The notes beneath the pieces are model-generated. The model had not been told where the DNA came from and ran no database searches. It was given only the letters and a program-made list of their open reading frames with translations. Below, piece by piece: positions 1-9,239 of a stretch of 9,239 bases of DNA (position 1 is its first letter; each line of letters opens with the position of its first letter). The position numbers were made by a program, and so were the translations under genes. Source of the stretch: a virus (taxonomy: Duplodnaviria > Heunggongvirae > Uroviricota > Caudoviricetes). The stretch is taken from the IMG/VR virus record IMGVR_UViG_2657245112_000034; one strand, 5' to 3'.

Positions 1-192
1 TTGTTCTGGTGTTATCGGAGAGGCTTTTGGTGTTTTGCCCTGACGCTCATCACGCAGTTGTTTGACCCATCTTGTCATTGTGGAAAGGCCAACATCCATA
101 GCTTTGGCGGCATCTGCCACCGTGTATGTCTGGTCAACAACCAGTTGAGCGGATTCGCGTTTAAACTCTGCGCTAAAATTTCTTTTTTTCAT
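1..192 (-). CDS. IS3-family transposase OrfA (HTH DNA-binding part), N-terminal 64 codons; 3' part lies outside window
   Basis: Hand translation from ATG (forward cat 190-192): [64 protein letters not shown], matching from memory the IS911 OrfA N-terminus. Not in the ORF track because it runs off the window. Confidence 0.8.
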
Positions 193-264
193 TGGAGCAC
201 CTGTGTTGTTCTGAGGTGAGCATATCACCTCTGTTCAGGTGGCCAAATTCAGTAAACCACTTCA
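1..264 (-). mobile_element. Partial IS3-family insertion sequence (IS911-like), left end only; element continues beyond window start
   Basis: Minus-strand translation of 1..192 is a recognisable IS3-family OrfA N-terminus; terminal sequence on minus strand begins TGAAGTGG (forward ccacttca at 257-264, repeated at 265-272), consistent with IS3-family TG...CA ends. Exact end (264 vs 272) uncertain. Confidence 0.7.
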
Positions 265-292
265 CCACTTCAGAGCAGACGAGACAAAAAGA

Positions 293-865
293 ATGGTTGA
301 CGCATCAGCTCAACCCCATATAGTTGTAACACTTGAGCCAAACCCTTGGGCCGCTTTTTACTTTGATATTAACATTGCTAATACAGGGAACGCACCTGCC
401 TATAATGTTGAGGTTGTGTTTGATCCTCCACTAGTAAATGCGGAGCATAGAGAAAAAAGTGAGATTCCGTTTAGTAAGGTAAGCGTGTTAAAAAATGGGC
501 AATCACTTACCAGCAATCTCTGTAAGTATGAACAAATCAAAGATCAAATTTATAATATTAATATAAGCTGGGCAAGCAAACCTAAATCAAACGATAGAGA
601 AACAAATGAATATGTGTATGACATGGCGACATTTGAAGGAATAAGTTATCTAGGAGCGAGAAGCCCATTGACGCAAATTGCAGAACAAATTAAAGGTATA
701 AGAGAGGATTGGAAACCTATTGCACAAGGAGCTAAAAAAGTAAAAGCAGACGTATATACTTCAAGCGATAGAAACGAAGAACGCACGTATCTGCAAGAGC
801 AACACGATTTGGCAATAAAAAGGAGAGATGAGAAAAGAGAAAAAAGATTAGAGTCTGGTGAATAA
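293..865 (+). CDS. Hypothetical protein, 190 aa from ATG 293 (frame open from GTG 239 inside the IS end); possibly 5'-truncated by the IS insertion
   Basis: ORF track 239..865; first ATG at 293 with weak purine-rich upstream (gacgagacaaaaaga). AT-rich codon usage; charged C-terminal tail RRDEKREKRLESGE. No family recognised. Confidence 0.5.
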   Translation: MVDASAQPHIVVTLEPNPWAAFYFDINIANTGNAPAYNVEVVFDPPLVNAEHREKSEIPFSKVSVLKNGQSLTSNLCKYEQIKDQIYNINISWASKPKSNDRETNEYVYDMATFEGISYLGARSPLTQIAEQIKGIREDWKPIAQGAKKVKADVYTSSDRNEERTYLQEQHDLAIKRRDEKREKRLESGE

Positions 866-874
866 TTTTAAAGG

Positions 875-895
875 GAGTGGGTAACTAACCCACTC
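875..895. terminator. Hairpin between convergent genes (8-bp stem gagtgggt/acccactc, 5-nt loop), possible bidirectional terminator
   Basis: Perfect inverted repeat gagtgggtaactaacccactc lying between the stop at 863-865 (+) and the stop at 914-916 (-); no long T-tract on either side, so weak as an intrinsic terminator. Confidence 0.35.
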
Positions 896-913
896 GTAAC
901 TATAAACCTGTAA

Positions 914-1738
914 TTAATCACTTATTTTTGACAACAGATAATTACTGAACGCACTGCAAGTGACTAACATAAATTTAGCTTCAGCTAAGGTAGGATTTAC
1001 ATCTTCTTCTGTTAGCGCATGACGTATTCCACCCTGATCACTTGTATAACCATAGAGCTGACTAAAAGCGCCTTTCATTGCAGAGTGTATATATCCTTTT
1101 TCCTCTATAGCTTTAAGACAAGCCCCCAAGGTTCCTTTATCATTGCCCGTGATTTTCCTGCATAAAGATTCAATTGCAGAGATAGACTCTTTAATCGAGT
1201 TTCTGTAGTCTGGCTGCTCTCTATCCGTCATTAGTTGTAACGCCCTTTCGAAATGGCTACGCGATGAATCAGTGCCATTATCAACTGCGTTCTGAACACT
1301 TTCAATTTCGTTATCATTTGAAATAGGAGTAATACAACCATTTATTATGGTATAACCAACGCCATGCTTTTTAAAGATGGAATTGAGATGCTTCGATAGA
1401 TTAATATATGAATTAGTTCTCTCAATGATGAACTCAATTAAATCATATACCAAATACCATGCTTCCCCATATATATAATCTCGGATAGCAGTCAGCAACG
1501 TCTTATCACTTTTGTATCCACTTTCATAACGAGGAATATTATCCGCAGGTTGATTTAGATAATATATCCACACAGACTGCGCACATTTTGTTGCTGTAGC
1601 AGTTTGACGATTGTTAGTCCAAAGGAAAAGATATAAGCAATTCCACAATGCCATGCGTGTATCAGAATTAAGATCATTCAGCTGGACATGCTCTCTAACG
1701 TCAACATGACCATACCTCACAGAAAATGGCTTTATCAT
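914..1738 (-). CDS. Hypothetical protein, 274 aa, AT-rich; function unknown
   Basis: Long uninterrupted ORF; ATG at 1738 preceded by purine-rich caggcaggggaaga; W/Y-rich N-terminal half and helix-like C-terminal half. No catalytic motif confidently recognised by eye. Confidence 0.65.
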   Translation of the reverse strand: MIKPFSVRYGHVDVREHVQLNDLNSDTRMALWNCLYLFLWTNNRQTATATKCAQSVWIYYLNQPADNIPRYESGYKSDKTLLTAIRDYIYGEAWYLVYDLIEFIIERTNSYINLSKHLNSIFKKHGVGYTIINGCITPISNDNEIESVQNAVDNGTDSSRSHFERALQLMTDREQPDYRNSIKESISAIESLCRKITGNDKGTLGACLKAIEEKGYIHSAMKGAFSQLYGYTSDQGGIRHALTEEDVNPTLAEAKFMLVTCSAFSNYLLSKISD

Positions 1739-2271
1739 TCTTCCCCTGCCTGATTGTTATGTTCGTTTAAATTATGCAGTCTAAGTTTGATACAATCATA
1801 TATTAAGCAATAGAATCCATAAAGCCCCGTTGGTGGTAAGACAACAAGCGGAGCCTCTTGCGACTTCATCAGGGTTATGTCAGTTAGTGAGGCTTATCAG
1901 GATGACCATGTACCCAAGGGGAGCGAGGCCGAACCGCTGGCAGAGCTTGCATATGGTCTGCAAGTACCGTGACCACCATAAACCTGTTTATCCCCTGCGG
2001 CGTCTCGCGACGGCGACAGAATGGGGGCATCGGGCTAAAATGCGCTGCACTAAAAGTTTTGGGATTGTTTAGAGACGGTGGCTACGTCATAGCTTTCAAG
2101 TTGAGTCAGTACGTGTTTGACGCTTGGAACGACACGCCGCTATGAGTTAACATCCCAATTACCACTATCAACCACAGCGGCTTTTTCAAGGGACATAACA
2201 GAGCATTTCTTACAGGCAAAAGAGACAGATTTAATCGTCTAACTAACTGTATTGTAAGGAATTTAGTAACT

Positions 2272-2292
2272 TGGTGCGAAGGCCGGACTCGC
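2272..2292 (-). other. att-like site: partial copy of a tRNA-Leu (leuX-type) 3' end, probable satellite attachment-site repeat marking the left boundary
   Basis: Minus strand reads GTGCGAGTCCGGCCTTCGCACCA; the 15-nt CGAGTCCGGCCTTCG plus CACCA matches, from memory, the T-arm/acceptor 3' end of leuX (P4 integrates at leuX) with one G missing. Upstream sequence is AT-rich and not tRNA-like, so this is a fragment, not a gene. Confidence 0.45.
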
Positions 2293-2374
2293 ACACACAT
2301 TTAACCTATTGTAAAAATTGAAATTTAATTATAATTAATTCAATTATGCCCCTTTTTGTGCCCCCACCATTCTC

Positions 2375-2583
2375 TGTTCACATTTTGATTTTTGTTGATT
2401 ATTTATCCAAAAATCATCAGAGAAATAGTCAATCTAGTTAGGTTCCGTTAAACGGATCCAAACCGGGACTTGACTCTACAAAAAATACTTTTTTTTCGCA
2501 AAACCATGCACACTATTCACCCTGCCATTTTTAACTTATATATCAATTGTTTACGTGTTAACAGCGAGGTGAAGAGTGAACAG
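2375..2583. repeat. crr-like patch of alpha-iteron-like octamers downstream of the alpha gene
   Basis: TGTTCACA at 2375-2382, TATTCACC at 2514-2521, tandem GGTGAAGA/GTGAACAG at 2568-2583; these resemble the P4 type I iteron TGTTCACC / GGTGAACA in both orientations. Confidence 0.3.
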
Positions 2584-2605
2584 CTATCTCTACATTTGTG
2601 CGTTT

Positions 2606-2632
2606 CCAATAAGAAGCCCGGCATCAGCCGGG
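2606..2632 (-). terminator. Probable intrinsic terminator after the alpha gene
   Basis: Forward cccggc atca gccggg (2617-2632) forms a 6-bp GC stem; on the minus strand it is followed by the U-rich CUUCUUAUUGG, 12 nt after the alpha stop (2644-2646). Confidence 0.45.
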
Positions 2633-2643
2633 TTAGTTAATCG

Positions 2644-4977
2644 TTATTTTAATATTGGCTCATCACACTTGGGCAGCCAGTCTGCATTACTCTCCTCTTT
2701 CAAAGTGAGGTTAGTTTGCATTCCCTGATTAGTTCGCCGTTTCTCATAATGTAGCCCGTACTCCTTCAGCATGACTGGCAACCCTTTGCCAAACATCGTA
2801 AGACTCAGGGTGTTTTTATAGCCATTAGCCTCCATGTATACGAGGTAGGCATGGTAAAGGTATGTACGTGGCTGGCGTGGGACAATATTGGCGTTCCCCA
2901 TAAACATACCGTTGGTGTCAGGTAATGCCTCAAGGTAGCCACAAAAATCAAATGCTGGATCAGCATCACGCTTGATGGTGAGAGCCTCATCAGAATTCTG
3001 CTGCGACTGAAGCAATGTTCTGGCGCTCATCGGATCGCTGAAACGCTGCATGAGCTGACGAACAATCACAGCCAGTTCTCGTGCAATTTTATCTTTCAAC
3101 TGCGGATCGCGTTCTTCCGGTGCTATCTGCTCAGGAAAATGCAGAATAACTCTCCTGCGGGACACACCACCACTGCGATCAGTGAAGCGCATAGGATTAT
3201 TATTTACGGCCAAGATAACCGCCGGAATATGTGTTGAATAAGCATTCTGATATTTGGGGTCCACAGATACTGCATCGCCACCAGTTATAGCCTTAAGCCC
3301 GGCGCCGTCGCCGCTCCACTTCTCCTGATCAGGCAGGCGAATAAGAGAAAAACCTATCAGAGCCGCACGTTCTCGCGGGGACTCCAGCGTTTCAATGGTC
3401 GCAGAGGTGGCGTTATCCTCTCCAGCAAGCATGGTCGCAATTTCAGCCAGAATACTTTTGCCACTTCCACCAGGGCCAGTCACTTCCAGAAAGAGCTGCC
3501 AGTCATAGCGGTTCGCCAGCACCATAAATAACGCTGCAAGAATAATGTCGCGTTTTGCTGGCTTGTGTCCGGCGGCCCGGTCCAGCCAACGCCAGAATGC
3601 CGGGGCATGAGTTTCAAGCGTTTCCCCCTTTACCGGTGGCGTGAAATCGACTTCACACAGGGTACGCAGCCAGTTCTCTTTACAGTGCGGACTAAAAAGC
3701 CCTGTTCGCGTATCGAGAACGCCATTACGAAAACCAATCAGATGACGTGACGGATTTTGCTGCTGCGGAACAATTAACTTTAATGTTTCCACCAGTGAGG
3801 CAATTTTTCCTGAGGAAAACGGTGCCCCGAGGCGCTGGAAAAGGGCTGCGACATCTCGGGCAAAATCTGACTGAGAAATAACTTTCCACGCTCCAGACTC
3901 GTAGCGGGATAAAAGCTGCCCGTTCGGATCAACCGCCAGTGCATCCCTGTAATGCTCCCGAACCCTCTGAGCTTTTTCGCTGACACTCATCGCTGTGAAT
4001 TCTGCTTCACTCATTGTGTCGAAAGGACTGGCGTTATGTGGCTTCAAAGCCTCAAGAATTGCCTTCCGGGTGGATTCCTCTCCGTATTGGGTAAGCGCAT
4101 CATTCCAGTCACCAAAAACCGGTGGCAGCACAATGTCACACTGACTCGCTTTTGCAGCAGTTTCAGCCCTGTTCTGGCCTGAACCATTCAGATCGCGGTC
4201 CGCTGCAATAATTAACTGATATCCCGGATACTTATTATGGGCAACGCTGCTCAGAGAAAGAAAGTTGACCGACGAAAATGCCACCATGACGGCTTCTCCT
4301 GTCAAATAATGAATGGTAAGCGCCGTGGCGTAACCTTCCGCAATCCAAATCCTTCTTACAGAACTCCCGCCCCCTTCTATCAGATGATAGGCCTCCTTAA
4401 CCTGACCTCCTTTAAGAAAACACTTGCTACCATTGCCACTGATGAGCTGAATATTCACCAGCTCCCCGTCAGCGTTATAGAGTGGGACGATCAAATCACC
4501 GGGGCGGAACATCATACCACCGGCCTTATGAGCTGAAGTCAGCTCATGGCAAATATGCTCCGGGAAACCTTTATGTGTAAGATAAGTGTTTCCGGCAGAT
4601 TCACGCGAGGCTTGCAGCAGTCGCGCGGCAAGTGCTGCCGCTGCATCTTTCCCGCTATCGGTATCGGCGGTTAACGTCCTGACCTCGGAATTAACTACAG
4701 ACAGATCATGTGTCAGTCCATGTATCCTGTCAGCTGCTTCACTGATATCCACATTCAGTGCCCTGGTGACAAGCGCTAAACCATCCCCGGCTCCGCACTG
4801 ATTGCAGAACCATGTTCCGCGTCCTTCCTGATCGTCGAAGCGAAAACGATCTTTACCGCCACAGACCGGGCAAGGCTGATGGCGATTTTTCAATATATTC
4901 ACGCCCAGCGCTGGCAGAATCTGAGCCCAGTGACCGCGGGCAGCCTTCACGGCCTGACTGACTTTCATTCCTGACAT
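2644..4977 (-). CDS. alpha: P4 alpha-type bifunctional DNA primase / replicative helicase with C-terminal origin-binding region
   Basis: 777 aa from ATG at 4977 (RBS GAGGGAGAA upstream; ORF track extends to 5028 but has no RBS there). Zn-ribbon CPVCGGKDRFRF...WFCNQCG near N-terminus, Toprim-like IWIAEGYATA...IIAADRD, Walker A GPGGSGKS. Length equals P4 alpha as I recall it. Confidence 0.9.
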   Translation of the reverse strand: MSGMKVSQAVKAARGHWAQILPALGVNILKNRHQPCPVCGGKDRFRFDDQEGRGTWFCNQCGAGDGLALVTRALNVDISEAADRIHGLTHDLSVVNSEVRTLTADTDSGKDAAAALAARLLQASRESAGNTYLTHKGFPEHICHELTSAHKAGGMMFRPGDLIVPLYNADGELVNIQLISGNGSKCFLKGGQVKEAYHLIEGGGSSVRRIWIAEGYATALTIHYLTGEAVMVAFSSVNFLSLSSVAHNKYPGYQLIIAADRDLNGSGQNRAETAAKASQCDIVLPPVFGDWNDALTQYGEESTRKAILEALKPHNASPFDTMSEAEFTAMSVSEKAQRVREHYRDALAVDPNGQLLSRYESGAWKVISQSDFARDVAALFQRLGAPFSSGKIASLVETLKLIVPQQQNPSRHLIGFRNGVLDTRTGLFSPHCKENWLRTLCEVDFTPPVKGETLETHAPAFWRWLDRAAGHKPAKRDIILAALFMVLANRYDWQLFLEVTGPGGSGKSILAEIATMLAGEDNATSATIETLESPRERAALIGFSLIRLPDQEKWSGDGAGLKAITGGDAVSVDPKYQNAYSTHIPAVILAVNNNPMRFTDRSGGVSRRRVILHFPEQIAPEERDPQLKDKIARELAVIVRQLMQRFSDPMSARTLLQSQQNSDEALTIKRDADPAFDFCGYLEALPDTNGMFMGNANIVPRQPRTYLYHAYLVYMEANGYKNTLSLTMFGKGLPVMLKEYGLHYEKRRTNQGMQTNLTLKEESNADWLPKCDEPILK

Positions 4978-4991
4978 GACGCAGTTCTCCC

Positions 4992-5315
4992 TCAGTGTAA
5001 AACCGGCTTTTTGATGTGACGGACGCATAACTCATCCATTACGGCTATTCCGAGCTGGGAGAGTGCGGGACAGGACATTAGAGGGCCGTATTCCATCAGG
5101 TCTGAAAGCAGGGCGCAGGCGATTTCCATGCCTTTTGTTTGCCCGTGCTGTCGCAGATAAAATCCTTCAAGCTCACGGGCAATAGCGGTTTCAATTTCAT
5201 CCAGAGTGAGCTGCAGATGGCGGTTTTGCTGATAGCAGGCACTCAACCAGGCGCAGGCTACCGCGCGGCGATACAACGCTACCCGAAGTGAAAGGGAAAG
5301 AGTGCGTGATTTCAT
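4992..5315 (-). CDS. Hypothetical early-left-operon protein, 107 aa
   Basis: ATG at 5315 with RBS GGAGGTGGTG; start overlaps the upstream gene's stop in ATGA (5312-5315); ends 14 nt before the alpha start. No family recognised. Confidence 0.6.
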
Positions 5316-5536
5316 TGCACCACCTCCATGTTCATGAGGTCATCCTGGCAACGCTGTACCACGCCATCAAGCTGCTCTGTCATCAGATAAATCAGGGAAA
5401 CCAGTTGTTCACATTGAGCACTGGCAGGTTTTTCGTAGCAATCCTGAAGAACAGCCATTCCAGTGACAAACTCTCCCACGTTACGAAGATGCTTCAGGCG
5501 GAGAATATCGTCATAAGAGATTGCGGCGTGATTCAT
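5312..5536 (-). CDS. Small protein, 74 aa, at the position of P4 epsilon (function unverified)
   Basis: ATG at 5536 (forward cat 5534-5536) with strong RBS GGGAGGTGA; the ORF-track extension to 5575 lacks an RBS. Start overlaps the upstream ORF stop as TAATG. Confidence 0.55.
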
Positions 5537-5727
5537 TAGATCACCTCCCGGACAGGCAGGCGAGCAGCAAGACAAAGCACATACTCATGGACCAGTGAAA
5601 GACGTGCATGATGCTCATTGCTGGCGATGATACGCAGCATACTGATACGTGGTTTACGTTCTGCACGACGAACGGCGGCAAAAACAAATATAAATTGAGG
5701 ATGTGACGGGGCGAGGATCGTAGCCAT
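5536..5727 (-). CDS. Small protein, 63 aa ([63 protein letters not shown]), kil-like position downstream of the immunity RNA region
   Basis: ATG at 5727 (forward cat 5725-5727) preceded by GGAGGT at 7-nt spacing; it is the 3' end of the 234-aa ORF-track frame 5536..6240, the rest of which overlaps RNA elements and vis. Confidence 0.35.
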
Positions 5728-5764
5728 AAGGGCAACCTCCAATAAGTAGCGGTAAATGCCACCA

Positions 5765-5781
5765 CCGGAGTTCCTACGCTC
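5765..5781 (-). promoter_or_regulatory. seqC-like RNA target element (transcript GAGCGUAGGAACUCCGG)
   Basis: Forward gttcctacgc at 5770-5779 is a 10/10 direct repeat of 5977-5986; it sits in the loop of a stem accacc (5761-5766) / ggtggt (5785-5790). Confidence 0.45.
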
Positions 5782-5789
5782 ATGGGTGG

Positions 5790-5875
5790 TGACCCGAACG
5801 GGGGTAGGAATACCGGCCTTATTGGAAACCGGCCAGCCCGAAGGCTGCCCCGCCCGGACCACCATTATCTGAAAG
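5790..5875 (-). ncRNA. Candidate P4 CI-like immunity RNA (boundaries approximate)
   Basis: No credible ORF; holds the single complementary element (transcript CCGGUAUUCCUACCCCCG, forward gtaggaa 5805-5811) and a CAGCC-UUCG-GGCUG tetraloop hairpin (forward 5834-5847). Matches P4 seqA/seqB/seqC logic. Confidence 0.4.
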
Positions 5876-5930
5876 GGGCTAAGGTATAAGCACCGCAGCC
5901 CGAAAAATGGGTGTGCCTGAGCAACGACGT

Positions 5931-5953
5931 AAAAAAAGACGCACGGCGCGTCT
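5931..5953 (-). terminator. Intrinsic terminator / attenuator in the leader between the seqA-like element and the RNA
   Basis: Transcript AGACGC-GCCGU-GCGUCU followed by seven U (forward A-tract 5931-5937), read directly from the minus strand. Confidence 0.45.
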
Positions 5954-5971
5954 GGTGTCGCCAATAAGTAA

Positions 5972-5990
5972 CTCGGGTTCCTACGCCCGG
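5972..5990 (-). promoter_or_regulatory. seqA-like RNA target element (transcript GGGCGUAGGAACCCGAG)
   Basis: Forward gttcctacgc at 5977-5986; complementary to the UUCCUAC-CCC element at 5801-5816 (about 10 of 11 positions can pair). Confidence 0.45.
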
Positions 5991-6015
5991 CAGCCGATTT
6001 TGCGGCAGCGGGAAA

Positions 6016-6045
6016 ACTATACCTGGAAAAGATATCAGGACGCAA
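6016..6045 (-). promoter_or_regulatory. Sigma70-type promoter candidate (P_LE-like) for the immunity / early-left transcript
   Basis: Minus strand TTGCGT (forward 6040-6045), 18-nt spacer, TATAGT (forward 6016-6021), just downstream of the vis stop; predicted start near 6008. Confidence 0.4.
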
Positions 6046-6080
6046 GCCAGAAAAAAGAAGATGAGACTGCAAAGCAAGTT

Positions 6081-6341
6081 TCACGCATGGCCTCCTTGCT
6101 CGCGGGCAGCAATTCGCGCCGCCATCCATGCACTGACCTCCGACTGTACCCAGGCCACATTTTTTCCACCCAGGGATATCTGCTGCGGGAAGGCATCGCG
6201 GCTGATAAGGTCGTAGATGGTTGAACGGGATAGCCCGCAAAGGTGCATCACTTCAGGTAATCGTATGAAGCGCTCCTGCTGAGCCGGAACCGGGAGCACC
6301 GGAGCAGCTGGTGCCGGGGTGGAAACGGAAATACTATTCAT
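6081..6341 (-). CDS. vis: AlpA/Vis-family helix-turn-helix regulator / excisionase-like protein, 86 aa
   Basis: [50 protein letters not shown] is a typical AlpA-family HTH signature; ATG at 6341 with RBS GAGAGGTAG; Pro/Ala-rich N-terminal tail. Confidence 0.85.
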
Positions 6342-6830
6342 CTGGCTACCTCTCTAATATGTTTACAACAGTCCGGGCAATTCCATGCGGATTCAGGTAG
6401 CTCCTTATTATGTTTATATAAGCGGCTCGCGCATGCTTTATTTATTTTGTGTGAAATGTTGATTTCTCAAAAAATAAAACAGCTAAAAACCGTATGAAAC
6501 GAACAAAAACAAACAATTCCTTTATGGAATATAATAAGGAGCATCAATAATAAAAAAGTCTATTACACTAGGCAGGATCACAGCTCAAATCTGAACCAGC
6601 CCATATCATTCAGGGCGTTACATCATAAGCACTAAGACAACACCTGATTAATAAAAGAGCCAAAACGGCCAAAAATAAACAGCTCACCATATGTATCAAT
6701 AAATCCGATGATTAAAGAAATTAAATTACCATCTTACTTCCGCATGTATCCGGATGTGTTTAATGAACATCAGACAAATTCATTTTTATGAATATTTTCC
6801 TGAAATGCAACTGAGTGCAGGGAGGTTGAA

Positions 6831-6847
6831 TGTTTAATTATTAAACA
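6831..6847. promoter_or_regulatory. Perfect 17-bp palindrome TGTTTAAT-T-ATTAAACA, candidate operator
   Basis: 8+1+8 palindrome verified base by base; the half-site TGTTTAAT recurs at 6757-6764 and 6981-6988. Confidence 0.3.
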
Positions 6848-6886
6848 GACATAAGACATCTTTTATTCTTTACATAGAATATGTAT

Positions 6887-7100
6887 TGAATACTGGTGAA
6901 TACTGGTGAATATTGGTGAGGAGAAAAGATCCAGTAATAAACTGAAATAAATATCGCGACTTATATGAAAAAGAAATATATGTTTAATTTTATCTCTGTG
7001 AACAGTCATGAACAGTAGATGATCACTTTAATTAAAACACTACACCACTTAACCACATGTATTTACTATATTTTTATTGAAGTGAACAGTAGTGAATAGT
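6887..7100 (+). repeat. ori-like cluster of alpha-iteron-like octamers, including three tandem 10-bp units
   Basis: TGAATACTGG x2 and TGAATATTGG (6887-6916) give GGTGAATA at 6895 and 6905; GTGAACA at 6998 and 7082, ATGAACA at 7008, GTGAATA at 7092; all same orientation, paired at 10-bp spacing; about 4.5 kb from the crr-like patch. Confidence 0.45.
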
Positions 7101-7165
7101 ATGTATTAAAGGAAGCGTGTAGATCAGACATGACACCTTTCTCTGGCTAGCCAGAACAAGGTCAT

Positions 7166-7183
7166 TGTTCAGTCACTGACACA
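7166..7183 (+). promoter_or_regulatory. P_sid-like late promoter activator site, TGT-N12-ACA dyad
   Basis: TGTTCAGTCACTGACACA has an internal palindrome CAGTcACTG; centre is about 81 bp upstream of the sid-like ATG; weak -10-like CACAAT at 7218-7223 and no clear -35, as expected for Ogr/Delta-dependent P2/P4 late promoters. Confidence 0.4.
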
Positions 7184-7255
7184 ATCCTCCTCGGTAGTGC
7201 GCTTGTATGGACCCCGGCACAATTGACACAACAACAAAACACTACCGGAGCAGTC

Positions 7256-8008
7256 ATGACTACTGTTAACCAGATCCCTGATGCAAACATTACACCCTCC
7301 CTCCCACCGAAAATTCGCGAAGCGGTGGATAAAGTTAAGGCAGCAAAAGCTGTCTGGCAGGAAGAACGACGAAAACAAACTGAAGCTGCTGCAATGATTG
7401 AAACTATCCGTAAACGTCAGGAAGATACAAAAACGGAAACGCAGGCGCTTAATGATGAATGGCGAAACCTGTTTCGTGAGAATCAGGGAAATATGACGCC
7501 ACGCATGAAAAAACTGCGGGCAGAAATCGCCCTCGGACGCGAAACACTGGATGAGTTCGAAGATTTGCTGGCAGCTCAGGCGGCAGAAAATGAATTCCTG
7601 CCCTGGAAAACTGCGGATGCTGCAAACCACTACATCAGCGAACATAATCGCCTGATTGAAACTCATGCAGTGTGGCTCTGGAATGAGTTTATGAAGGAAC
7701 ACGGTCAGAAACTTATTCAGATCCTTGGACTGCTGAAAATGACTCTGGGCCGAAGCGCTTCTGCTGTTATCGGTGTAGTTCATACCGTAAACGACCCCGA
7801 AAGTGTGCTGAAGCAATTTATCAGCGAGCAACTCACCACTCCGGCACTGTCCTGTAACGTATCTTCAACCGATGATATTACCCTGCCGGGGATCAGCATT
7901 TATGCGGACGATAAAGCCATCCAGGATGCCAGACAATCCCCCAGCCCTGCAGCGCGTTCACGGATGCTTAAACAGCGTGACATGGTTAAAGGGGGCGAGA
8001 AGAAATGA
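7256..8008 (+). CDS. Sid-like protein by position (alpha-helical, coiled-coil-rich), 250 aa
   Basis: ATG at 7256 with GGAG 5 nt upstream (ORF track starts at TTG 7223); first gene after the late promoter; heptad-like charged helices (WQEERRKQTEAAAMIETIRKRQEDTKTE...). Assignment is by synteny, not recognised sequence. Confidence 0.6.
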   Translation: MTTVNQIPDANITPSLPPKIREAVDKVKAAKAVWQEERRKQTEAAAMIETIRKRQEDTKTETQALNDEWRNLFRENQGNMTPRMKKLRAEIALGRETLDEFEDLLAAQAAENEFLPWKTADAANHYISEHNRLIETHAVWLWNEFMKEHGQKLIQILGLLKMTLGRSASAVIGVVHTVNDPESVLKQFISEQLTTPALSCNVSSTDDITLPGISIYADDKAIQDARQSPSPAARSRMLKQRDMVKGGEKK

Positions 8009-8559
8009 ATGCCGGAACCATTACTCAGGAAGCACTCAACGATTACCGCTCGGCGATAAAAAGCTGGCTGACACTACGTAATACGCAAAGTACCTACCAG
8101 CTTCGTCTGGCGGCTCTGCTGGATACTGAAGAAAAACCGGCAGCATATGCCAGCCAGCTTGAGGATCTTCGTGAGCGTCTTGCAGTCCTCGAATGGCAGA
8201 TTAACTGTGCTGCACGGGATGGTCTTTATGCTCATCAGATTGTGCTGGAGAGTTGTGTTACAAGCGCAACGGAAAACTTCATGAGCGAGCATGGTGATGC
8301 ACTCACTGACGCTCTGGCTCCTTTTCTTTGCGCTCCATACGGGCTTGAGGCGGCAATGAAAATATTACGAACCGCTGTAGCCCGACAAACGGAAATGCGT
8401 ACTCCGGTAATTTCAGCAGCATATAAGAGCATTATCGACGAAACCGGATTAACGGTGGATGCATCAATGCGCGCTGATGCTTCAGCCAGTTTCACCCCGG
8501 CACAACATAAAGTTTTCCTGGCCCGCCTTAACCGACTTAATGAAAAAGGAGTGTGCTGA
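8005..8559 (+). CDS. psu: Psu-like protein (polarity suppression / capsid decoration), 184 aa
   Basis: Start overlaps the sid-like stop in ATGA (8005-8008); segments SWLTLRN, LEWQINCAA, DALAPFL and FTPAQ agree with my recollection of P4 Psu; predicted all-helical. Confidence 0.6.
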   Translation: MNAGTITQEALNDYRSAIKSWLTLRNTQSTYQLRLAALLDTEEKPAAYASQLEDLRERLAVLEWQINCAARDGLYAHQIVLESCVTSATENFMSEHGDALTDALAPFLCAPYGLEAAMKILRTAVARQTEMRTPVISAAYKSIIDETGLTVDASMRADASASFTPAQHKVFLARLNRLNEKGVC

Positions 8560-8560
8560 T

Positions 8561-8833
8561 ATGGCCCTGAAGTGTCCTGAATGTGGCGCGGTCGCTCACG
8601 CCAGAACCAGCGCCTATGAAGCTCCGTCGGTTAAACGCTCATGGTATCAGTGCCAGAATCTGGAATGTTCCTGCACATTTACCGCACTGGAAAGCGTGGA
8701 TACGATAATTATGAAGCCTCGGTGCAATGAACAGGAATCAGACAAAGCAAAAATACCGGAAAAACAACAGCAAACTCTCAATCGCTATGGCTCCGCGTCA
8801 AAGCTGTCAAACCGTCAGCAAATTCCTGTCTGA
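8561..8833 (+). CDS. Ogr/Delta-family zinc-finger late transcription activator, single domain, 90 aa
   Basis: ATG at 8561 with AAGGAG upstream (the ORF-track start at 8459 overlaps psu and is rejected); CPECGAVAHARTS...QCQNLECSCTF matches the P2 Ogr Cys4 signature. Confidence 0.85.
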   Translation: MALKCPECGAVAHARTSAYEAPSVKRSWYQCQNLECSCTFTALESVDTIIMKPRCNEQESDKAKIPEKQQQTLNRYGSASKLSNRQQIPV

Positions 8834-9142: not shown

Positions 9143-9239
9143 TTACTGAGAGCTCAGATCAACTTTCCAGGGCAACAGATCGCGTACCCGGTTTGCCGGC
9201 CAGTCCTGGATATGTTCAATGACGTAACGCAGCCACTTT
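9143..9239 (-). CDS. 3' end of a minus-strand gene entering from the right edge (C-terminus ...KWLRYVIEHIQDWPANRVRDLLPWKVDLSSQ); identity unknown
   Basis: Hand translation of the minus strand gives an open frame from the window edge to TAA (forward tta 9143-9145); absent from the ORF track because it is truncated. Lies just past the cos-like region where P4-like elements carry variable cargo. Confidence 0.4.
   Translation of the reverse strand, partial: KWLRYVIEHIQDWPANRVRDLLPWKVDLSSQ

What the first reader, a model, noticed from the sequence alone, without database searches (positions are those of the whole stretch)
2272..2292. tRNA-Leu 3'-end fragment marks the satellite boundary, with a one-base deviation
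The minus strand carries CGAGTCCGGCCTTCG-CACCA, which matches the leuX T-arm/acceptor 3' end as I recall it except for one missing G, and the upstream sequence is not tRNA-like. This fits a P4-type att repeat at the end distal to the integrase, and it separates the satellite core from the AT-rich genes on the left. The deviation could mean a different tRNA-Leu-like target, a secondary site, or decay.
Basis: partly seen in the sequence, partly recalled or inferred. Interest (0 to 1): 0.45.

Follow-up and report, generated by a model that had tools for sequence, protein, structure and literature searches.

The report
Far-end attachment site of P4-like satellite
The 20-base tRNA-Leu fragment is the far-end attachment site of a P4-like satellite prophage inserted in the E. 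coli leuX gene, and its "missing G" is the usual form of this repeat behind P4-family elements in enterobacteria, not local decay.

Summary
Confirmed. Window 2272-2291 (minus strand) reads CGAGTCCGGCCTTCGCACCA. This is the last 21 bases of leuX (tRNA-Leu CAA) minus one G of the GG pair.

The window is 100% identical to E. coli O103/O26 chromosomes. There, an intact leuX and a P4-type integrase (95% identical to P4 Int) lie 14 kb away, 5.6-7.1 kb beyond the right edge of the window.

Two E. coli genomes that lack the element join intact leuX directly to the sequence left of the fragment. That fixes the boundary to the base. The AbiJ-type gene on the left is outside the satellite.

The G-less 19-mer follows element arms in 37 viral contigs and at least 106 enterobacterial species genomes. 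It is present in all six sampled E. coli relatives of this arm, with five different right flanks, and in 5 of 5 primase-to-integrase junctions from metagenomes. Copies behind unrelated element types keep GG.

The G-less state therefore goes with a P4-family arm on its left. The mechanism is unresolved. The feature itself is ordinary; the regularity is a modest lead I did not find described.

The parts
2272..2291 (-). Distal att core (attR): a copy of the last 21 bases of leuX with one G missing, CGAGTCCGGCCTTCG-CACCA
   Evidence: The empty-site comparison fixes the element/flank boundary between 2271 and 2272.
2274..2294 (-). Near-perfect dyad GTGCGAG|TCCGGCC|TTCGCAC, which exists only in the G-less form. 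It is a candidate pair of integrase core-binding half-sites around a 7-bp spacer (inference).
   Evidence: coordinates; left half-site profile over 128 distinct arms; predicted hairpin -9.3 vs -6.2 kcal/mol with GG restored.
2344..2367 (-). Two tandem 12-bp arm-type repeats, GTGGGGGCACAA and AAAGGGGCATAA. They match the annotated 'attP arm sequence repeat' pair of phage P4 (GTGGGGGCACAA, AAGGGGGCATAT).
2292..2643 (-). Non-coding P arm of the satellite, between the primase gene and the core. It holds a GC-rich hairpin after the primase gene (2617-2632), which corresponds in position to the P4 alpha terminator. It also holds octamers (2514-2582) resembling P4 ori type-1/crr repeats.
   Evidence: The same arm at 90-100% identity occurs in 172 E. 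coli genomes.
2644..4977 (-). Alpha-type primase-helicase, 777 aa, 73% identical to P4 alpha. It is the satellite gene next to the distal end, as in P4.
4992..6341 (-). Satellite early/immunity region: DUF5375 (P4 orf106-like), a small ORF, an Ash-family protein, and an AlpA-type (Vis-like) regulator/excisionase candidate. It also carries C4 antisense RNA (5782-5869) and isrK (5932-6009).
7256..8833 (+). Satellite late genes: Sid-like protein (weak Psu-family match), Psu, and an Ogr/Delta zinc-finger activator.
1..2271 (.). DNA outside the satellite, which lies directly next to leuX in genomes lacking it. It contains an IS3 remnant, a hypothetical gene (293-865, +) and an AbiJ-NTD4 gene (914-1738, -). 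No integrase remnant is present.

Best explanation
Window 2272-2291 is the distal attachment site (attR) of a roughly 14-kb P4-like satellite prophage, about 11.3 kb without its IS66-family insertion, integrated in the 3' end of leuX in E. coli.

How it works (established knowledge of P4-type integration, inferred here). A P4-family tyrosine integrase bound arm-type repeats on the circular satellite. It then recombined the satellite's core, a copy of the leuX 3' end, with leuX. This left a functional leuX next to the integrase gene and a non-functional copy of the core next to the primase gene. That second copy is what the window shows. Excision would reverse the reaction, probably with the AlpA-type protein as directionality factor.

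The missing G. It is the normal state of this distal or junction copy whenever the DNA to its left is a P4-family arm. My preferred reading (inference, about 0.6) is that the G-less core belongs to the element side of the site. On that reading the position lies within, or 3' of, the strand-exchange region of these integrases, so the copy next to the tRNA body keeps GG and the copy next to the element arm keeps the deletion.
For: Shown by tool results:
- The window is 100% identical to E. coli O103/O26 chromosomes.
- Intact leuX (CAA) and a 420-aa integrase lie 14 kb from the fragment, in the same orientation. The integrase is 94.9% identical to P4 Int.
- Between the two repeats lie alpha, DUF5375, Ash, AlpA, Sid-like, Psu and Delta genes and a C4 RNA.
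- The arm-type repeats match those annotated in P4, and the layout primase - arm repeats - core is the same as in P4.
- Strains EC21Z-063 and Z1323CEC0007 have leuX...GGCACCA joined directly to AGTTACTAAATTCC..., which is window 2271 leftwards.

On the missing G:
- All 6 sampled E. coli relatives of this arm (90-99% identical) carry it, with 5 different right flanks.
- 37 IMG/VR contigs hold the exact G-less 19-mer, 36 of them behind P4-type arm sites. Only 2 P4-type arms are followed by GG.
- Five of those contigs hold both leuX itself with GG and the far-end copy without the G.
- 120 stretches from GTDB species genomes hold the 19-mer, 106 of them behind AT-rich element arms, in about 28 enterobacterial genera. 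None of 31 tested lies in a tRNA.
- 5 of 5 metagenome junctions of the form alpha - core - P4-type integrase are G-less.
- In a sample chosen by the primase gene, not by the core, 6 are G-less and 2 are GG.
- Displaced copies behind other element types keep GG: 6 of 6 long-identity arms in IMG/VR, plus O157 EDL933 and Nissle behind an element with an unrelated 636-aa integrase.
- A scan allowing 0-4 bases at the position found only one other lesion at an element junction.
Against: - Excision was not observed, so activity of this copy is inferred.
- The only episomal attP sequence available, phage P4 itself, has GG. The G-less form is therefore not required for function.
- For PAI II of strain 536 (integrase 58% identical to this one), the far repeat is GTTCGAGTCCGGCCTTCG|ACCA. 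[quoted passage not shown] That places at least one crossover 5' of the lesion. It fits exchange across the position but not exchange strictly 3' of it.
- Pantoea eucrina has a full-length leuX at its native promoter with the G-less end. So the deletion can also end up in the tRNA gene.
- One arm of the unrelated element type is followed by a G-less core (L057).
Confidence: 0.85

Rival explanations
1. Post-integration lesion. The crossover lies entirely 5' of the GG, inside GAGTCCGGCCTTCG. The distal copy therefore starts as the displaced, intact chromosomal 3' end (GG). It loses a G afterwards, either as a scar of abortive integrase cleavage or through selection: the lesion would stabilise the element and would leave a crippled leuX in cells that lose it.
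For: P4's own attP has GG. The strain 536 data put a crossover in the 18-bp left block and leave a damaged leuX. Pantoea eucrina has a G-less full-length leuX. Other small lesions abut the same phosphodiester: -2 in strain 536, an 8-bp duplication in L006, and +1 in L296. The Islander paper places the third class of tRNA crossover at the junction of the T and acceptor stems, which is 5' of the GG (PMC4383910).
Against: It needs the same one-base deletion to arise independently in well over 100 lineages, behind very different arms and next to species-specific flanks. Junctions between two elements, whose right half once completed a working tRNA, are G-less in 5 of 5 cases. Displaced copies behind non-P4-family elements stay GG in hundreds of E. 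coli genomes, so generic decay or host-level selection is not enough. Almost no other lesion types are seen.
Confidence: 0.2
2. Local decay of a dead site. The satellite is an immobile remnant and the missing G is a random private mutation of this lineage.
For: The element carries an IS66-family insertion, and O26 strains have an additional IS600. The junction is identical in about 107 related STEC genomes, consistent with vertical inheritance.
Against: The same deletion is found in diverged relatives next to different flanks, and across many genera. The integrase, AlpA, alpha, sid, psu and delta genes are all intact.
Confidence: 0.03
3. A different target. The element uses another tRNA-Leu-like gene or a secondary site whose 3' end genuinely reads CCTTCGCACCA.
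For: None beyond the one-base difference itself.
Against: Intact leuX lies at the other end of the element. The empty site is leuX. No tRNA overlaps the G-less 19-mer in 31 loci tested. The one full-length gene with this end (L106) has an acceptor strand one base short.
Confidence: 0.02

Closest known systems
Phage P4 attachment site at leuX (attP core annotated at NC_001609 4078-4097; X05947)
   Same: The core has the same sequence and the same target gene. The layout primase - crr-like repeats - paired arm repeats - core - integrase is the same. The integrase is 95% identical.
   Different: P4's core is GAGTCCGGCCTTCGGCACCA, with GG. The window's copy lacks one G, and identity to the tRNA starts one base earlier (CGAG instead of TGAG). 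The rest of the arm is too diverged for a blastn match. The late-gene order here is sid-psu-delta.
Pathogenicity island II of uropathogenic E. coli 536 (leuX; flanked by direct repeats)
   Same: A P4-family integrase (58% identical) sits next to leuX. The far repeat matches leuX exactly up to CCTTCG and then deviates at the same position.
   Different: It is a 102-kb island, not a satellite. Its far repeat has lost two bases (TTCG|ACCA), and its arm repeats are of another type (GTTGGTATA).
Displaced tRNA-gene fragments as island end markers (Islander principle, PMC4383910)
   Same: The regenerated tRNA gene at one end and its displaced 3' fragment at the other end delimit the element precisely.
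   Different: Here the fragment is systematically not identical to the gene, and the difference tracks the integrase family of the neighbouring element.
leuX-inserted element of E. coli Nissle 1917 / O157:H7 EDL933 with a 636-aa integrase
   Same: It uses the same target and, in Nissle, the same right-hand flank as the window.
   Different: The integrase is unrelated. The repeat is longer, starting at GGTTC, and keeps GG.

Membership tests
P4-like satellite prophage integrated at a tRNA gene | Tyrosine integrase of the P4 family adjacent to the intact target tRNA gene | tested here: met
   A 420-aa integrase, 94.9% identical to P4 Int, starts 164 bp downstream of leuX in the same chromosome. 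It lies outside the window.
P4-like satellite prophage integrated at a tRNA gene | Direct repeat of the tRNA 3' end at both ends of the element | tested here: met
   15 + 5 of 21 bases are repeated 14,010 bp apart. The repeat is imperfect by one deleted G.
P4-like satellite prophage integrated at a tRNA gene | Related genomes with an unoccupied site that join the two flanks exactly at the repeat | tested here: met
   In L002 and L004, leuX is followed directly by window 2271 leftwards.
P4-like satellite prophage integrated at a tRNA gene | P4 core gene set (alpha primase, sid, psu, delta, AlpA/Vis-type regulator, CI/C4 RNA) | tested here: met
   Pfam matches for alpha domains, DUF5375, Ash, AlpA, Psu (twice, one weak and Sid-like) and Ogr_Delta. 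Rfam gives C4 at 83 bits and isrK at 72 bits. No epsilon homologue was looked for.
P4-like satellite prophage integrated at a tRNA gene | Arm-type integrase binding repeats flanking the core | tested here: met
   GTGGGGGCACAA and AAAGGGGCATAA at 2344-2367 match the annotated P4 arm repeats. GGGGGCA repeats also lie on the integrase side. Binding itself was not tested.
P4-like satellite prophage integrated at a tRNA gene | Excision, helper-dependent packaging, cos site | not testable with these tools
   No circular form or attP of this element was found in the phage, plasmid, viral or metagenome collections.
Functional tRNA gene | Complete cloverleaf with a 7-bp acceptor stem | tested here: not met
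   ARAGORN and Rfam find no tRNA in the window. Only the last 20 bases are present.

The most novel reading that the evidence does not exclude
The one-base deletion is a conserved, heritable feature of the attachment sites of P4-family elements that target leuX. It would lie inside the strand-exchange region, the acceptor 3' strand. The two ends of an integrated element would then never be identical, and exchange would produce a heteroduplex. Only products that keep GG in the tRNA survive selection. Excision could leave a crippled leuX behind, a 'tRNA hostage' that stabilises the element. This would reconcile four observations: the G-less state follows the left neighbour, P4's attP has GG, strain 536 is left with a damaged leuX, and Pantoea eucrina has a G-less leuX.
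Probability: 0.35. Interest if true: 0.55.

Novelty: already known. Interest (0 to 1): 0.3.

Why it matters
For this window, the fragment gives a base-exact left boundary of the satellite. It shows that the AbiJ-type gene and its neighbour are not satellite cargo. They belong to DNA that sits next to leuX even without the satellite.

More generally, tools that look for a perfect repeat of the tRNA end will miss or misplace the far end of leuX elements. Searching for GAGTCCGGCCTTCGCACCA would find it.

If the G-less core really is part of the P4-family site, it locates the strand-exchange region of a widely used integrase family. As far as I could find, that region has not been mapped. It would also suggest a simple way for such elements to make their own loss costly to the host.

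Tried and rejected
- blastn of the arm region against the phage collection found nothing. The arm is too diverged from P4 at the DNA level, so P4 was fetched by accession instead.
- A megablast with the 89-nt P4-type arm plus core against E. coli genomes returned nothing, probably because of the low-complexity filter. I therefore have no E. coli-wide count of G-less versus GG behind P4-identical arms.
- Searches for an episomal attP of a natural satellite gave only P4 itself. These covered plasmids, phages, IMG/VR with the pattern TTTGAG...CACCATT, and metagenomes. The five metagenome junctions are probably chromosomal tandem arrays: one contig is 349 kb, and that junction's integrase (seen on two contigs) is frameshifted.
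- The 15 plasmid hits to core plus K-12-type flank all have GG. The two I inspected are a chromosomal fragment and a junction behind an anticodon-type arm, so they are uninformative for P4-family attP.
- I looked for an integrase remnant in window 1-2271, which would have indicated a second, older P4-like element. None was found.
- I considered that L237 and L268 were secondary-site insertions that could map the crossover. L237's flank looks like a diverged version of the usual flank. L268's other end was not in the stored locus. Both were set aside.
- Williams 2002 (sublocation of crossover in tRNA genes) is not held in the library. Only its restatement in the Islander paper could be cited.
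- I did not find a published mapping of the P4 Int cleavage sites.

Full report
**Observation**

The minus strand of the window reads ...AATGTGTGTG CGAGTCCGGCCTTCGCACCA AGTTACTAAATTCC... The 20-mer occupies 2291..2272. It is unique in the window even with three mismatches allowed, and none of 200 shuffles produced a match. No tRNA gene is predicted in the window, and Rfam gives no tRNA match.

**Where the window comes from**

The window is 100% identical over its whole length to chromosomes of E. coli O103 RM8385, O26:H11 11368 and about a hundred related strains. In many O26 strains the match is interrupted by an extra IS600.

In RM8385 the window corresponds to 18001-27239 of locus L001. On the same strand as the fragment, 14,010 bp further on, lies an intact tRNA-Leu gene with anticodon CAA between ahr and the island. 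This is leuX. It ends ...GTGCCGGTTCGAGTCCGGCCTTCGGCACCA.

The fragment is thus the last 21 bases of leuX with one G of the GG missing.

Starting 164 bp downstream of leuX is a 420-aa tyrosine integrase that is 94.9% identical to P4 Int. In window coordinates the integrase lies at 14855-16117 and leuX at 16281-16365.

**The element between the repeats**

Reading from the fragment, the element contains:
- a non-coding arm;
- an alpha-type primase-helicase (73% identical to P4 alpha);
- a DUF5375 protein, an Ash-family protein and an AlpA-type regulator;
- a C4 antisense RNA (83 bits) and isrK;
- a Sid-like protein, Psu and an Ogr/Delta activator;
- the IS;
- two cargo genes;
- the integrase.

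This is the P4 gene set in the order expected for an integrated P4. The arm shares four features with the corresponding P4 region: a GC-rich hairpin after the primase gene, GTGAAYA octamers, a tandem pair of 12-bp arm repeats (GTGGGGGCACAA / AAAGGGGCATAA, against GTGGGGGCACAA / AAGGGGGCATAT annotated in P4), and then the core about 50-65 bases further on.

**The boundary**

Strains EC21Z-063 and Z1323CEC0007 lack the element. They have leuX...CCTTCGGCACCA followed immediately by AGTTACTAAATTCCTTACAATACAG..., the sequence to the left of the fragment in the window, and then the AbiJ-NTD4 gene.

Everything from 2272 rightwards is therefore the satellite, and everything from 2271 leftwards was already next to leuX. 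I found no integrase remnant in that left part. Nissle 1917 has a different 7-kb element at the same place.

**The missing G is not private to this genome**

- About 107 E. coli genomes have the identical junction, and 172 have this arm at 90% identity or more.
- I fetched six relatives at 90-99% arm identity. All have ...CGAGTCCGGCCTTCGCACCA, followed by five different right-hand sequences. One also has a small duplication at the site.
- An exact scan for the G-less 19-mer found 37 IMG/VR contigs. In 36 it follows P4-type arm repeats, and most have a P4-like primase gene just upstream.
Of these, 106 follow AT-rich element arms of several types, in about 28 enterobacterial genera. Nine are chance hits in GC-rich genomes and three have tRNA-like sequence on the left.
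- ARAGORN finds no tRNA over the motif in 31 loci tested.
- The matching scan for the GG 20-mer in IMG/VR found 40 contigs. About 24 of these hits are leuX itself followed by an element's integrase-side arm, and about ten lie in other tRNA genes. Only two are P4-type arms followed by GG.
- Five contigs carry both ends, with GG in leuX and the deletion at the far end.
- In a sample chosen by the primase gene, not by the core, 6 of 8 leuX-type cores are G-less.
- A scan allowing 0-4 bases at the position found only one other lesion at an element junction.

**The state follows the left neighbour**

Displaced copies behind other kinds of element keep GG. These are elements whose identity with the tRNA begins further 5', or the Nissle/O157 element with an unrelated 636-aa integrase. 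The count is 6 of 6 in IMG/VR, plus EDL933, Nissle and a plasmid-borne junction.

With the K-12-type downstream sequence, 273 E. coli genomes have the exact G-less form. About 2,450 differ by one gap. Most of these are leuX itself; about 7 of 47 sampled rows had no tRNA annotated under the match, and EDL933, the one I inspected, is a GG copy behind the 636-aa-integrase element.

Junctions of the form primase - core - P4-type integrase are places where the right half once completed a working tRNA. They are G-less in 5 of 5 metagenome contigs.

GG therefore goes with tRNA body or a non-P4 arm on the left, and G-less with a P4-family arm on the left, whatever lies on the right. The window's right-hand haplotype is otherwise identical over 552 bases to that of empty-site genomes.

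**Mechanism of the deletion: not settled**

If exchange lay wholly 5' of the GG, the far copy would inherit GG from the displaced tRNA end. The same deletion would then have to arise afresh more than a hundred times, and only behind P4-family arms.

If exchange lay at or 3' of the position, the deletion would simply travel with the element. Three facts stand against a purely 3' exchange:
- Phage P4's attP has GG.
- Pantoea eucrina has a full-length leuX at its native promoter with the G-less end and no integrase nearby.

A model in which the position lies inside the overlap region fits all the observations, but it is inference. In that model the products are heteroduplex and selection keeps GG in the tRNA. 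The Islander paper places this class of crossover at the junction of the T and acceptor stems (PMC4383910), which is compatible.

I also note that the deletion creates a near-perfect dyad, GTGCGAG|TCCGGCC|TTCGCAC. The bases left of GAG in 128 distinct arms resemble the complement of the G-less right half, with T at -3 in 107 arms and C or T at -1 in all 128. They do not resemble the complement of the GG form.

**Verdict**

The feature is an ordinary attR of a P4-like satellite at leuX. The deviation is the family-typical form of this site. It is not decay, a different target or a secondary site. Why it is typical is an open point, and a modestly interesting one.

Noticed in passing
window 5782-5869 (-) and 5932-6022 (-): Strong Rfam matches to C4 antisense RNA (83 bits) and isrK (72 bits), the latter overlapping a sub-threshold c4-a1b1 target match. 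This is the P4-type RNA immunity module, sitting inside or next to the Ash-family ORF.
   Followed up: partly
window 914-1738 (-) and 293-865 (+): An AbiJ-NTD4 gene and a 190-aa protein with no Pfam match lie just outside the satellite. They sit directly next to leuX in genomes lacking the satellite, so this candidate defence pair belongs to the older leuX-adjacent DNA, not to the P4-like defence hotspot.
   Followed up: partly
window 6400-7200: An AT-rich stretch (31-33% GC) with no annotated gene lies between the AlpA-type gene and the Sid-like gene. It is where P4 has its divergent promoters and origin. It was not analysed.
   Followed up: no
window 9143-9239 and L001 27143-29758: The right end of the window runs into an IS66-family element (ISCro1) inserted just after the delta gene, roughly where a P4 cos site would be expected. 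This insertion may have disabled packaging. O26 strains carry an additional IS600 within the window region.
   Followed up: no
L001 30048-32611: Between the IS and the integrase, at the position of P4's variable cargo region, lie a 528-aa hypothetical protein and an MltR-family regulator. They may be satellite cargo. They were not examined.
   Followed up: no
L106 2010-2094 (Pantoea eucrina LMG 5346): A full-length leuX behind its own -10 box ends in the G-less sequence, with no integrase in the next 4 kb; a type I restriction specificity gene (hsdS) lies about 2 kb downstream. It looks like a natural counterpart of the damaged leuX described for E. coli 536 after island loss.
   Followed up: partly
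L006 about 940-975 (E. coli SJC33) and L296 540-560: Other small lesions abut the same position of the core: an 8-bp duplication (CCTTCGCACCTTCGCACCA) in L006 and an extra base (TTCGCGCACCA) in L296. This suggests that this phosphodiester is a local hotspot.
   Followed up: no
L309 (IncHI1B plasmid C of E. coli S30) 2380-2570: A conjugative-type plasmid carries a junction made of an anticodon-loop-type element arm, the leuX 3' part with GG, and an intB-type integrase-side arm and integrase. This shows that leuX-targeting islands also occur on plasmids.
   Followed up: no
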